Shown piece by piece: positions 12,850 through 15,272 of a stretch of DNA of 33,807 nucleotides; within the stretch, counting starts at the first letter, position 1, and every line of letters begins with the position of its first letter. A program made the translations under genes and the position numbers. Under the pieces are notes generated by a model that saw only the letters and a list, made by a program, of their open reading frames with translations, was not told the DNA's origin and did no database searches. Source of the DNA: Escherichia phage vB_EcoM-12474III; the sequence record NC_049457.1; one strand, given 5' to 3'.

Positions 12850-13010
12850 ACCCTCCGGCTTTTCAGAAAGGTCAGAGCCTTTTTTAACGGACTCTGTTTT
12901 TTGGTGCGGATAATGATTCCCTTACGCCCCTTACCGTGGGTGATGGTGAAGTCAATCGCCCTGGGGCTTTCGTTACGCAGTAACTGAGCAATATAACGCG
13001 GTTCACTCAT
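12840..13010 (-). CDS. Small protein, P2 orf78-like
   Basis: MSEPRYIAQLLRNESPRAIDFTITHGKGRKG...; between cox and B, as in P2. Confidence 0.6.
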   Translation of the reverse strand: MSEPRYIAQLLRNESPRAIDFTITHGKGRKGIIIRTKKQSPLKKALTFLKSRRVWK

Positions 13011-13012
13011 AA

Positions 13013-13285
13013 TCACAACCCCATCCACAAAAGCCATGCATCACGCTGTTCAACTGGTCGGTTATAAAACGCCTCTCGTACAGCGCGATTAAACTCTGGA
13101 ATGAAAACCCACTTCTCACCGACACGAGCGTTCGGCTTACTTGGATCACGAAGCTCAATAACTGGCAATTTATTCTCTTTTACCATCTTGACTACAGCCG
13201 TTTCTGGCTTACCAAGTAACTCTGCAAACTTAACCGTATGTACCGCATCAATCGGGTACTGAATCACATAGTCATTGACTTCCAT
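13013..13285 (-). CDS. cox: Cox (early-promoter repressor and excision directionality factor)
   Basis: 90-aa ORF divergent from C; conserved ...KLPVI...W...GL architecture of P2 Cox but clearly divergent sequence. Confidence 0.75.
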   Translation of the reverse strand: MEVNDYVIQYPIDAVHTVKFAELLGKPETAVVKMVKENKLPVIELRDPSKPNARVGEKWVFIPEFNRAVREAFYNRPVEQRDAWLLWMGL

Positions 13286-13437
13286 TGATTAGCCCTTTTT
13301 GCTTTCGTGTTACCCTTATTAGATCCAGTCCCTTCTAGGTCGCCCCTGTCCTTTCTAGGGACTGGCTAACACACTCAAAAGGTCACCAATACACAACCTT
13401 TTGACGGGAATATAAGTCACCAATAGGTTACTGTCAA
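13286..13437. promoter_or_regulatory. Divergent early promoter/operator region (Pe/Pc equivalent) between cox and C
   Basis: Intergenic region between divergent cox and C; contains direct repeats cccttctagg / cctttctagg and inverted arms ccagtccct ... agggactgg at 13325..13365. Confidence 0.6.
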
Positions 13438-13731
13438 ATGCAGACATTCGAAAAACTGAAAGCGATTAGGAAAGCAGAAGGCTTAACACAGGCGAAATTC
13501 AGCGAAATTAGCGGGATAGCTCTAGGAACAGTCAAAAATTACGAAAGTGGGCATAAAGACCCTGGTCTCAGCATCGTTATGCGAGTCACAAATACGCCTT
13601 TATTTAAAAAATATACGCTCTGGTTAATGACTGGTGATACGTCACCACAAGCTGGTCAGATCGCGCCGGCTCTCGCACACATTGGGCAAAAACCAACAGA
13701 ATCAGACCACTCCGAAAAACAGACTGGTTAA
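13438..13731 (+). CDS. C: Immunity repressor C
   Basis: 97-aa ORF; C-terminal ...KYTLWLMTGD...GQIAPALAHIGQ... resembles P2 C; the N-terminus is divergent. Confidence 0.8.
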   Translation: MQTFEKLKAIRKAEGLTQAKFSEISGIALGTVKNYESGHKDPGLSIVMRVTNTPLFKKYTLWLMTGDTSPQAGQIAPALAHIGQKPTESDHSEKQTG

Positions 13732-13800
13732 CACTCTATAAACATTACATTTTCACTATTTGTTACCAAGATGGTGAATACAGCGTCAGAGGGCTTTCTT

Positions 13801-14781
13801 ATGTCAATTAAGAAGCTCGATGATGGACGCTATGAAGTGGACATTAGACCTCGCGGTCGCGACGGAAAACGCATCCGCAGGAAATTTGAAAGAAAAGCTG
13901 AGGCTGTAGCATTTGAGCGATACACAATCGCCTACGCCAGCCAGAAAGAATGGGCAGGTCAGCGAGCAGATCGCAGAACTTTGAGTGAGTTGCTGGACAT
14001 CTGGTGGAAATATCACGGGCAAAACCACGAGCATGGAACAAAAGAGTTTAATCATCTGCTCAAAACCATCAGCGGCATAGGTGATATACCAGTGAGCCGG
14101 ATGAGCAAAAGAGCTTTGATGGATTATCGTTCCATGCGACTACGTGATGGTATCAGTGCCGCAACGATAAACCGTGACATGTACCGATTATCCGGCATGT
14201 TCACAAAATTAATTCAATTGGATGAATTTTCCGGGCAACACCCAATTCACGGACTGCCGCCACTGGCGGAGGCCAACCCTGAAATGACGTTCCTGGAAAA
14301 AGCAGAAATCGAAAAACTGTTAAATGTTTTGGATGGTGATGACTTACTTGTCGCACTTTTATGTCTGAGCACTGGAGGAAGATGGACGGAAGTTGCCACG
14401 CTAAAACCAGCACAGATTACAAATTGCAGGGTTACCTTCCTGAAAACCAAAAACGGTAAAAAGCGAACCGTGCCGATTTCTGAGGAACTGGAGAAAAAAG
14501 TTAAAGAGGAGGCCAGCGCTAAATTATTCAAAGTTGATTATGAGAAGTTTTGCGGGATTTTACGCAGAGTGAAGCCAGATATACCACCCAATCAGGCAAC
14601 CCACATCCTGCGGCATACATTCGCAAGCCATTTCATGATGAATGGGGGCAATATAATCGCACTGCAACAGATTCTGGGACATGCGAGCATTCAGCAGACG
14701 ATGGCCTATGCGCACCTTGCGCCTGACTACCTGCAAAATGCCGTCGCACTGAATCCTCTAAAAGGCGGAGTGACGTTATAA
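13801..14781 (+). CDS. int: Tyrosine integrase
   Basis: MSIKKLDDGRYEVDIRP... (P2 Int-like N-terminus); C-terminal HILRHTFASHFMMNGG ... LGH ... MAYAHL tyrosine-recombinase motifs. Confidence 0.9.
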   Translation: MSIKKLDDGRYEVDIRPRGRDGKRIRRKFERKAEAVAFERYTIAYASQKEWAGQRADRRTLSELLDIWWKYHGQNHEHGTKEFNHLLKTISGIGDIPVSRMSKRALMDYRSMRLRDGISAATINRDMYRLSGMFTKLIQLDEFSGQHPIHGLPPLAEANPEMTFLEKAEIEKLLNVLDGDDLLVALLCLSTGGRWTEVATLKPAQITNCRVTFLKTKNGKKRTVPISEELEKKVKEEASAKLFKVDYEKFCGILRRVKPDIPPNQATHILRHTFASHFMMNGGNIIALQQILGHASIQQTMAYAHLAPDYLQNAVALNPLKGGVTL

Positions 14782-14795
14782 ATTTCCCTTCTGAG

Positions 14796-15050
14796 TGTCC
14801 ACATAGTGTCCACACTCTCAGAACTTTGTAGCCCTTCCAGTCCCTTATAGGTTTTCTTAAGTTACTGTTTTCTTACGGAAACCGATGTAAGTGATTGATA
14901 AAAAAAACCCCCACATCATGTGGGGGAAGACAGGGATGGTGTCACAAAAAAGCACCTAACCTGATGATATAAATGGATTTATGTCAACCACTGTCCACAT
15001 AGCGTCCACATCGACCATAAATAAGCCCCTCGACTGAGGGGCTATTTTTG
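14796..15050. other. attP: attP region: Int arm-type sites flanking a probable core
   Basis: TGTCCACATAGTGTCCACA (14796..14814) and TGTCCACATAGCGTCCACA (14992..15010) are tandem copies of the reverse complement of TGTGGACA, which I recall as the P2 Int arm-site motif; the probable core is the A-run plus hairpin at about 14898..14930. Confidence 0.55.
14900..14926 (-). terminator. Rho-independent terminator downstream of ogr (likely overlapping the attP core)
   Basis: Minus strand reads stem cccccacatgatgtggggg followed by eight T. Confidence 0.7.
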
Positions 15051-15053
15051 TGA

Positions 15054-15272
15054 TCACATCCACATAATTTGCTGCCCTGACGGCAACGGGTGCGGCCTCA
15101 CGGCGTGGACTTCTCCCGGCTTCACGATGTATCTCTGTACCGACTCATAAGTGATGAACGTGGCGCTGCAATTCACGTTCTGGCACTGGTGATAACGCTC
15201 TTTTGTCGTGTCAGTGATATAGCGGCTTGTACGCGCATGTGCGGCATGCTGGCATAAAGGACAATGAAACAT
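15054..15272 (-). CDS. ogr: Late-gene transcriptional activator Ogr (zinc finger)
   Basis: MFHCPLCQHAAHARTSRYITDTTKERYHQCQNVNCSATF... has the C-X2-C-X22-C-X4-C pattern and matches P2 Ogr (72 aa); RBS GGAAGAGG upstream of the ATG at 15272. Confidence 0.88.
   Translation of the reverse strand: MFHCPLCQHAAHARTSRYITDTTKERYHQCQNVNCSATFITYESVQRYIVKPGEVHAVRPHPLPSGQQIMWM

What the first reader, a model, noticed from the sequence alone, without database searches (positions are those of the whole stretch)
13325..14851. A 15-mer shared between the cox-C operator region and the attP arm
CCAGTCCCTTCTAGG (13325..13339) in the early promoter region recurs with 14 of 15 identities as CCAGTCCCTTATAGG (14837..14851), just inside the first Int arm site of attP. 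In P2, Cox acts both as repressor of the lysogenic promoter and as excision directionality factor at attP. A shared recognition element at both locations would fit that dual role for this phage's divergent Cox.
Basis: partly seen in the sequence, partly recalled or inferred. Interest (0 to 1): 0.4.

Follow-up and report, generated by a model that had tools for sequence, protein, structure and literature searches.

The report
Shared Cox-binding repeat, switch and attP
The repeated 15-mer is real and is most likely the recognition sequence of this WPhi-type phage's Cox protein, present at the lysogeny promoter and in the attachment site; this dual role is already published for phage WPhi, so the finding is mostly a rediscovery.

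Summary
CCAGTCCCTTCTAGG (13325-13339) recurs as CCAGTCCCTTATAGG (14837-14851), and no shuffle of the two intergenic regions matched as well (0 of 400).

The window is 100% identical to coliphage WPhi across cox and the switch. [quoted passage not shown] They lie about +5 to +40 from the annotated Pc promoter. They are not the C operators, which are GTCACCAATA at 13382 and 13416.

The attP copy sits between the int-proximal Int arm sites and the core. The P2 GenBank record annotates the Cox footprint in that same position.

Across 22 heteroimmune relatives, each lineage's switch matches its own attP arm far better than other lineages' arms (permutation p<1e-5). These module types track changes in the predicted Cox recognition helix. 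A natural mosaic shows the module follows Cox rather than C.

The exact attP copy and the clade-wide co-variation may be new detail. In passing I found a covarying dyad that contains the first copy.

The parts
13013..13285 (-). cox gene (90 aa), bifunctional repressor / excision directionality factor
   Evidence: Pfam PF10743 Phage_Cox, E 9.4e-24. PDB 4LHF (P2 Cox), E 2.5e-20. 41% identical to P2 Cox. Nucleotide sequence 100% identical to WPhi cox.
13285..13321 (+). Pc promoter (drives C and int)
   Evidence: Promoter feature of the WPhi record AJ245959, transferred by offset. Too weak to be picked up by the consensus scan.
13325..13339 (+). Switch copy s1, CCAGTCCCTTCTAGG (12-mer core 13328-13339). 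Its first 9 nt are also the left arm of a dyad.
   Evidence: Fits the published 12-nt direct repeat recognised by WPhi Cox (PMC5009727).
13345..13359 (+).
   Evidence: 2 mismatches; perfect match to GTCCYTTNTAGG.
13357..13365 (+). Right arm of the dyad, AGGGACTGG, complementary to 13325-13333
   Evidence: I18. Predicted hairpin -20.9 kcal/mol, z = -3.1. Arms covary across 22 lineages.
13382..13391 (+). C repressor operator half-site O2 (GTCACCAATA)
   Evidence: PMC1904263 gives O1 as TATTGGTGAC and a 34-nt centre-to-centre spacing. Sequence read.
13416..13425 (+). C repressor operator half-site O1 (GTCACCAATA)
   Evidence: PMC1904263; 34 nt from O2.
13403..13439 (-). Pe early promoter (drives cox)
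   Evidence: AJ245959 annotation. Consensus scan finds TTGACA-17-TATATT, 11 of 12.
13438..13731 (+). C immunity repressor gene
   Evidence: HTH_3, E 2e-8; annotated C in WPhi.
13771..14781 (+). int (tyrosine integrase; the WPhi annotation starts at about 13801)
   Evidence: PF24624 and PF00589.
14796..14814 (+). int-proximal (P') arm-type Int sites, TGTCCACATAGTGTCCACA
   Evidence: Direct repeat D5. Reverse complement of the P2-type arm consensus tgTGGaCa (PMC3448106). Same position as 'Int P' arm' in the P2 record.
14820..14831 (+). Possible weak second attP unit a1, GAACTTTGTAGC, 20 bp start to start upstream of the a2 core (19 bp between the aligned TTNTAG blocks)
   Evidence: 8 of 12 to s2, but reached in 6% of flank shuffles, so only suggestive. 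Conserved in Kosakonia prophage L010.
14837..14851 (+). attP copy a2, CCAGTCCCTTATAGG (12-mer core 14840-14851), the inferred Cox site of the P' arm
   Evidence: Positionally equivalent to the P2 Cox footprint. Lineage-specific co-variation with the switch.
14897..14943 (.). attP core region (identity with the host attB side ends near 14943)
   Evidence: Block invariant across lineages. Prophage junctions diverge after GGATGGTGTC.
14992..15010 (+). ogr-proximal (P) arm-type Int sites, TGTCCACATAGCGTCCACA
   Evidence: D5; P2 layout.

Best explanation
The repeated element is the DNA recognition sequence of this phage's WPhi-type Cox protein, used at two places.

At the switch, two direct copies 20 bp apart (13328-13339 and 13348-13359) lie about +5 to +40 relative to the Pc start. 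Cox oligomers bound there block transcription of C and int, which commits the phage to lytic growth. They also lie in the path of Pe transcripts, which may allow autoregulation.

In attP (or the int-side prophage junction), one strong copy at 14840-14851, and perhaps a weak one upstream of it (20 bp start to start), lies between the int-proximal arm-type Int sites and the core. Cox bound there bends the arm so that the excisive complex can form and integration is inhibited.

Shown experimentally by others, on identical sequence: WPhi Cox represses Pc, promotes excision in vitro, and recognises a 12-nt direct repeat in the Pe-Pc region.

Shown here: the copies exist beyond chance, their positions match the P2 layout, and switch and arm elements co-vary with the Cox recognition helix across lineages.

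Inferred: the 14837-14851 copy is the nucleation site for Cox in attP, and its lone strong unit explains weaker binding there than at Pc.
For: Identity with WPhi. PMC5009727 states that WPhi Cox represses Pc, promotes excision in vitro, does not bind P2 cox-boxes, and recognises a 12-nt direct repeat in the Pe-Pc region. The C operators are elsewhere (PMC1904263), so the repeat is not a C site.

Chance is excluded: 0 of 400 shuffles, and three perfect 12-mers, all on the + strand.

The P2 record gives the order int / Int P' arm / Cox (74 bp) / core / IHF / Int P arm. The window has the same geometry, with 83 bp from arm site to core against 87 bp in P2.

Co-variation: across 22 non-redundant lineages the mean local-alignment score of a switch against its own arm is 20.0. 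Label permutations give 15.7 +/- 0.8, with a maximum of 19.5 in 100,000. The strongest own-lineage matches are:
- L123: TTTGAAACGGTTCAGGAAG / TTTGAAACGGCTCAGGAAG (18/19)
- L011: TTTGAAAACGTTC (13/13)
- L-413C: AAACCACTCAAAACCGTT / AAACCACTCCAAACCCTT (16/18)
- L014: 17/20

Cox position 32, which aligns with P2 R29 in the recognition helix, is the most variable position of the protein (3.0 bits). Helix type tracks DNA module type in both the switch and the arm.

Mosaic L105 carries a WPhi-like C and operator O1 but an L011-type Cox, and its modules are L011-type. ENT4 has a different core, yet its arm module matches its Cox type.
Against: No binding data for the 14837-14851 copy could be read. 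My recollection of the abstract of Ahlgren-Berg et al. 2009 is that the authors describe only 'a repeat of 9 bp' in attP sharing 5 bp with the Pe-Pc repeat, and lower affinity for attP. The footprint may therefore not be centred on this copy.

Only 4 of 22 lineages have their own arm as the top-scoring arm. The signal is at the level of groups of related lineages, and the permutation test does not correct for phylogeny.

The same method does not detect the known P2 cox-box relation, so it is insensitive.

The second attP unit is weak (p about 0.06).

The first 9 nt of the switch copy also form one arm of a conserved dyad, so part of its conservation may serve another purpose.
Confidence: 0.8

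Rival explanations
1. The match is a coincidence between two AT/CT-rich intergenic regions and has no function.
For: With 3 mismatches allowed, 3% of whole-window shuffles also give three hits. Hits to the 12-mer consensus with 2 mismatches are at chance level.
Against: 0 of 400 shuffles of the two regions reach 14/15. All three perfect 12-mers are on one strand and at positions with known logic. Independent lineages carry their own switch/arm matches.
Confidence: 0.03
2. The shared element is bound by another protein, such as the C repressor, Int or a host factor like IHF or Fis, rather than by Cox.
For: The arm is a crowded nucleoprotein region. A block conserved in all lineages (TAAG..CTGTTTT, about 14858-14872) next to the copy could be a site for a conserved factor.
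Against: The C operators are mapped elsewhere. Mosaic L105 separates the module from C. P2-type Int arm sites are TGTGGACA. A host factor would not require lineage-specific sequences that track the Cox helix. WPhi Cox is reported to recognise the switch repeat.
Confidence: 0.05
3. The element works at the RNA level. The switch copy is the 5' arm of a stem-loop at the 5' end of the C-int mRNA. The attP copy, in the int 3' untranslated region, pairs with the dyad's right arm or with the antisense Pe leader to control int or C expression.
For: The dyad 13325-13333 / 13357-13365 folds at -20.9 kcal/mol, z = -3.1. It starts about 4 nt from the annotated Pc start. Its outer stem shows compensatory changes in 22 lineages: partner shuffles reach the observed pairing in 70, 17 and 0 of 5000 trials for the three variable pairs. 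The Pe leader is 14/15 complementary to the attP copy, which follows directly from the sequence.
Against: In most other lineages the part shared with the arm is the inner part of the switch module, not the stem arm. The arm region itself has no significant fold (z about -0.7 to -0.8). A dyad is equally expected for a symmetric protein site, and both strands fold about equally well. Direct DNA binding by Cox is documented. The RNA and DNA readings are not exclusive for the switch copy.
Confidence: 0.1

Closest known systems
Coliphage WPhi Cox with its Pe-Pc operator and attP (Liu & Haggard-Ljungquist 1999; Ahlgren-Berg et al. 2009, as cited in PMC5009727 and PMC3936717)
   Same: Same sequence: cox and the switch are 100% identical, and the whole cox-to-ogr region is 99.6% identical. 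Same gene order, promoters and C operators.
   Different: Essentially nothing in this region. The window is a WPhi-class phage with a few substitutions in attP outside the repeat. Whether the published work names the 14/15 attP copy could not be checked.
Bacteriophage P2 Cox and its cox-boxes at Pc, attP and P4 P_LL
   Same: Same protein family (PF10743; 4LHF, E 2.5e-20). Same dual role. Same placement of sites at Pc and between the P' arm Int sites and the core.
   Different: P2 uses six or more 9-bp boxes, TTAAA(G/C)NC(A/C), about 10-11 bp apart and in mixed orientations (PMC3936717). The window has none, even with 1 mismatch allowed. Instead it has 12-15-bp units about 20 bp apart in direct orientation. 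The proteins are 41% identical and differ at recognition-helix positions.
Phage 186 Apl (repressor and excisionase binding between pR-pL and at att)
   Same: One small protein binds direct repeats both at face-to-face switch promoters and at the attachment site (PMC7498355).
   Different: [quoted passage not shown] It uses seven sites one helical turn apart, and 186 has a CI/CII-type switch.
Lambda Xis and other winged-helix RDFs
   Same: Winged-helix proteins that bind head to tail on direct repeats in one att arm and bend it to direct excision (PMC7498355).
   Different: Xis has no role as a switch repressor, and its sites are adjacent at one-turn spacing.

Membership tests
P2-like Cox bifunctional repressor/RDF system (WPhi subtype) | Cox-family winged-helix protein encoded as the first gene of the early operon | tested here: met
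   PF10743, E 9.4e-24; 4LHF, E 2.5e-20; gene order cox / C-int / attP / ogr.
P2-like Cox bifunctional repressor/RDF system (WPhi subtype) | Face-to-face Pe and Pc promoters, with C operators (direct repeats) at Pe | tested here: met
   Pe found by scan, 11 of 12. Pc and Pe taken from the AJ245959 annotation. GTCACCAATA occurs twice, 34 nt apart, as published.
P2-like Cox bifunctional repressor/RDF system (WPhi subtype) | Imperfect 12-nt direct repeat in the Pe-Pc region that Cox recognises | tested here: met
   GTCCCTTCTAGG and GTCCTTTCTAGG at 13328 and 13348. Binding itself is taken from PMC5009727 and was not tested here.
P2-like Cox bifunctional repressor/RDF system (WPhi subtype) | Cox site in attP between the int-proximal arm-type Int sites and the core | tested here: inconclusive
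   A sequence copy is present at the equivalent position, with lineage co-variation. Protein binding to this copy cannot be tested with these tools, and the primary paper was not obtainable.
P2 cox-box type (P2, P2 Hy dis) | Multiple TTAAA(G/C)NC(A/C) boxes at about 10-11 bp spacing at Pc and attP | tested here: not met
   No match with up to 1 mismatch in 13286-13437 or 14815-14897. The literature says WPhi Cox does not bind cox-boxes.
Xis/Apl-type RDF site arrays | Three or more direct repeats spaced one helical turn apart | tested here: not met
   The strong units are 20 bp apart in the switch. The intermediate 10-bp positions show no convincing copy (sequence read).

The most novel reading that the evidence does not exclude
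Across the WPhi-related Cox clade, three things have diversified together in at least five or six lineage groups: the recognition helix of Cox (especially residues 32-33, 36-38), the Cox operator just downstream of Pc, and the Cox site in the int-proximal attP arm. A change of Cox specificity would then require matched changes at two DNA sites 1.5 kb apart. This offers a natural 'specificity code' for a recombination directionality factor. In addition, the first switch copy is embedded in a covarying dyad that may be a protective 5' stem-loop of the C-int mRNA, which would make that copy a dual-purpose (DNA site plus RNA stem) element.
Probability: 0.45. Interest if true: 0.45.

Novelty: already known. 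Interest (0 to 1): 0.27.

Why it matters
Coupling the lysis-lysogeny switch to prophage excision through one protein is the defining feature of P2-like Cox proteins. The shared recognition element is the physical basis of that coupling.

For WPhi this has been studied biochemically, so the finding itself adds little. What may be useful is the sharper definition of the attP site: a near-perfect copy of the operator repeat rather than a 5-bp resemblance. The comparative series of helix, operator and arm triplets is also useful, because it gives ready-made mutants for dissecting how Cox-type directionality factors read DNA, and it helps predict Cox sites in the many WPhi-class prophages (260 of 5426 complete E. 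coli genomes).

Tried and rejected
(1) C-operator reading. Rejected: the published O1/O2 sequence is GTCACCAATA at 13416 and 13382, not the 15-mer.

(2) Retrieving Ahlgren-Berg et al. 2009 (Virology 385:303), Liu & Haggard-Ljungquist 1999 and Karlsson et al. 2006. None is held. Searching the paper library for the repeat as a text string returned only unrelated primer sequences.

(3) Matrix of each switch against each arm with 10 lineages. The diagonal was clearly on top only for WPhi, L-413C and L014, and the P2 positive control was not detected. The method is therefore insensitive. The larger 22-lineage set gave a clear group-level signal.

(4) MAFFT alignment of the dyad region put the gaps at the 3' end and misaligned the right arms. 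I replaced it with anchoring on the conserved CCA / TGG.

(5) Polymorphism within the WPhi immunity class (phage records, IMG/VR). Too few substitutions to serve as a footprint.

(6) A second attP unit (14820-14831). Only 8 of 12, reached in 6% of shuffles, so I kept it as a possibility and not as a finding.

(7) P2 cox-box scan of the window. Negative.

(8) Most IMG/VR contigs end exactly at the int stop codon, so they gave switch sequences but no arms.
Full report
**What is in the sequence.** The two 15-mers are at the stated coordinates on the + strand: CCAGTCCCTTCTAGG at 13325-13339 and CCAGTCCCTTATAGG at 14837-14851. With one flanking base on each side the match is 16 of 17.

I compared the cox-C intergenic region (152 bp) with the int-ogr intergenic region (272 bp) on both strands. 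The best ungapped 15-mer match is this 14/15 pair. In 400 dinucleotide-preserving shuffles of both regions the best match never exceeded 13. The 12-mer core GTCCYTTNTAGG has exactly three perfect hits in the whole window, all on the + strand. Hits with 2 mismatches are no more frequent than chance.

**What the locus is.** Region 12990-15060 is 99.6% identical to coliphage WPhi, and cox plus the switch are 100% identical. The genes are:
- cox, 13013-13285, minus strand (PF10743)
- C, 13438-13731 (helix-turn-helix)
- int, 13771-14781
- then attP, ogr and D

The WPhi record AJ245959 annotates Pc at window 13285-13321 (+) and Pe at 13403-13439 (-). The consensus scan finds Pe (TTGACA-17-TATATT) but not the weak Pc. 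The C repressor operators are published as two direct copies of TATTGGTGAC, 34 nt apart (PMC1904263). In the window these are GTCACCAATA at 13416 and 13382. The 15-mer is therefore not the C operator. It begins about 4 nt after the end of the annotated Pc promoter.

**What is already known.** I could not obtain the 2009 paper or the 1999 J Virol paper. From my memory of the 2009 abstract, which I could not verify here, the authors report lower affinity of WPhi Cox for attP and mention only a 9-bp repeat in attP sharing 5 bp with the Pe-Pc repeat. If that recollection is right, the near-perfect attP copy may not have been pointed out.

**Position in attP.** The arm-type Int sites are TGTCCACATAGTGTCCACA at 14796-14814 and TGTCCACATAGCGTCCACA at 14992-15010. 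This is the reverse complement of the P2-type consensus tgTGGaCa (PMC3448106). The core is the block that is invariant across lineages and whose identity with host DNA ends near 14943. The P2 GenBank record gives the order int 3' end / Int P' arm / Cox footprint (74 bp) / core / IHF / Int P arm / terminator / ogr. The window copy at 14837-14851 lies 23 bp beyond the int-proximal arm sites and about 46 bp before the core, which is inside the stretch equivalent to the P2 Cox footprint.

**Comparative test.** Heteroimmune relatives whose Cox is 73-94% identical were collected from phage records (L-413C, P37, SI7, ENT4, FSL SP-004), from GTDB genomes and from IMG/VR. The int-proximal arm aligns throughout. 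The Int sites and the core are invariant, and the stretch between them is group-specific.

Each group has its own match between the switch (just downstream of Pc) and its arm:
- L-413C: AAACCACTCAAAACCGTT / AAACCACTCCAAACCCTT
- P37: AAACCGCT in both
- L011: TTTGAAAACGTTC in both
- L123: TTTGAAACGGTTCAGGAAG / TTTGAAACGGCTCAGGAAG
- L014: 17 of 20
- L018: tandem 10-bp units around ATGCTTAC in both

For 22 non-redundant lineages the mean local-alignment score of a switch with its own arm is 20.0. Permuting the arm labels 100,000 times gives 15.7 +/- 0.8, with a maximum of 19.5. The signal is a block structure of five or six groups, not 22 independent events, and the test is not corrected for phylogeny. 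The known P2 cox-box relation is not detected by this scoring, so negative cells carry little weight.

**Link to the protein.** The window Cox aligns to the P2 Cox crystal structure 4LHF with window residue n corresponding to P2 residue n-3. P2 R29, R30 and D33 in the recognition helix therefore correspond to window V32, K33 and K36. PMC3936717 names D33 (a lysine in WPhi) as a likely specificity determinant.

Among 35 distinct 90-residue Cox sequences of the clade, position 32 is the most variable in the whole protein (3.0 bits), and positions 28, 33 and 35-38 are also variable. Helix types go with DNA module types in both the switch and the arm:
- ..VKMVKEN (WPhi, L010) with GTCC(C/T)TT
- ..(S/T/A)EM(V/I)KAN with AAACC(A/G)CTC
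- ..MIEKN with AAACGG(C/T)TC
- ..EAMAKAN with CGTT(T/C)AGG
- ..(D/E)EMIKAR with TTTGAAAACGTTC

A natural mosaic, L105, has a WPhi-like C protein (87% identical) and an O1-region sequence identical to WPhi's. Its Cox is L011-type (96% identical), and its switch and arm modules are L011-type. The module therefore follows Cox and not C. ENT4 has a different core sequence, yet its arm module matches its Cox type.

**Mechanism.** The most likely reading (confidence about 0.8) has two parts. At the switch, Cox oligomers bind the two direct units from about +5 to +40 of Pc and block synthesis of C and Int. In attP or the int-side prophage junction, Cox binds the strong unit at 14840-14851, bending the arm to favour excision and inhibit integration.

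All units point the same way: away from Pc towards Pe, and from the arm sites towards the core. A weak second arm unit, GAACTTTGTAGC at 14820-14831, would mimic the two-unit spacing of the switch. It is only 8 of 12 and is reached in 6% of shuffles, although it is conserved in the Kosakonia relative L010. One strong unit plus one weak unit would fit weaker binding at attP than at Pc.

Cox binding at the switch rests on published experiments. Binding at the attP copy is my inference.

**Rival readings.**
- Chance is excluded.
- Another protein (C, Int or a host factor) is unlikely: the C operators and Int arm sites are mapped elsewhere, L105 separates the module from C, and the sequences are lineage-specific.
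- An RNA-level role cannot be excluded for the switch copy (next section). It does not explain the arm copy, which has no significant fold.

**Seen in passing.** The first 9 nt of the switch copy (CCAGTCCCT) are complementary to AGGGACTGG at 13357-13365. The resulting hairpin is predicted at -20.9 kcal/mol, z = -3.1. An equivalent dyad is present in all 23 lineages examined. Anchoring 22 of them on the conserved CCA...TGG (L014 has no TGG anchor), the next three pairs show compensatory changes: G-C/A-T, C-G/T-A, and C-G/T-A/G-C. Shuffling partners among lineages reaches the observed pairing in 70, 17 and 0 of 5000 trials.

This could be a 5'-terminal stem-loop of the C-int mRNA or a symmetric protein site. 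Both strands fold about equally well, so the data do not decide between them. A second, smaller covarying inverted repeat (13375-13383 / 13396-13404) brackets operator O2 at the 5' end of the Pe transcript.

**Comparison and novelty.** The element belongs to the WPhi subtype of the P2-like Cox system and is, base for base, the element studied in WPhi. It differs from P2 itself: there are no cox-boxes, and the units are longer, spaced about two helical turns apart, and in direct orientation. It is already known. The precise attP copy and the clade-wide co-diversification of helix, operator and arm are, as far as I could check, additional detail and not a new kind of system. WPhi-type switches occur in 260 of 5426 complete E. 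coli genomes.

**Verdict.** Observation confirmed. Interpretation supported with corrections. Novelty: already known. Interest is low to moderate.

Noticed in passing
window 13325-13365: The first switch copy is the left arm of a roughly 41-nt dyad (CCAGTCCCT ... AGGGACTGG; predicted hairpin -20.9 kcal/mol, z = -3.1) that starts about 4 nt after the annotated Pc promoter. An equivalent dyad exists in all 23 related lineages examined, and its outer stem shows compensatory base changes. It may be a 5' stem-loop of the C-int mRNA or a symmetric protein site.
   Followed up: partly
window 13375-13404: A second inverted repeat, TCAAAAGGT / ACCTTTTGA, brackets C operator half-site O2 at the very 5' end of the Pe transcript (-10.7 kcal/mol, z = -3.8 on the minus strand). 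By eye, similar inverted repeats with different sequence are present in relatives (SI7, L009, L013, L-413C).
   Followed up: partly
window 14851-14875: A perfect 9-bp direct repeat, GTTTTCTTA, at 14851-14859 and 14867-14875 starts at the last base of the attP copy. The block TAAG...CTGTTTT is conserved in all lineage groups, unlike the Cox-type module. It may be a site for a conserved factor, or the '9-bp repeat' of the literature.
   Followed up: no
L105 (IMGVR_UViG_3300028955_000039), upstream of C and the int-proximal arm: A natural mosaic. It has a WPhi-like C (87% identical) with a WPhi-identical O1 region, but an L011-type Cox (96% identical) and L011-type modules in the switch and arm. 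This implies a recombination joint between the Cox operator and C operator O2.
   Followed up: partly
L011, L012, L053, L092, L099, L105, L125 (between cox and C): In several lineages 0.5-0.9 kb with one to three extra ORFs is inserted between the cox start codon and the switch module, so cox is no longer adjacent to Pe/Pc. The complete module (Pc region, dyad, operators, Pe) stays next to C.
   Followed up: no
L075, L079 and a third IMG/VR locus (WPhi-class contigs), position equivalent to window 13329: A polymorphism changes the first switch copy to CCAGCCCCTTCTAGG. This breaks one Watson-Crick pair of the dyad (C.A on the + strand, G.U on the minus strand). The attP copy in L079 keeps the T.
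   Followed up: no
L018 (Acerihabitans arboris prophage), switch and arm: Both the switch (GATGCTTACA GAGGCTTATA) and the arm (AAATGCTTGC AAATGCTTAA) carry tandem units with a 10-bp period. This resembles the one-turn spacing of classical RDF sites, unlike the 20-bp spacing in WPhi.
   Followed up: no
L143 (Yersinia phage vB_YpM_22), just after int: About 560 bp holding a 78-aa ORF on the opposite strand is inserted directly after the int stop codon, displacing or replacing the int-proximal arm in an otherwise WPhi-class region.
   Followed up: no
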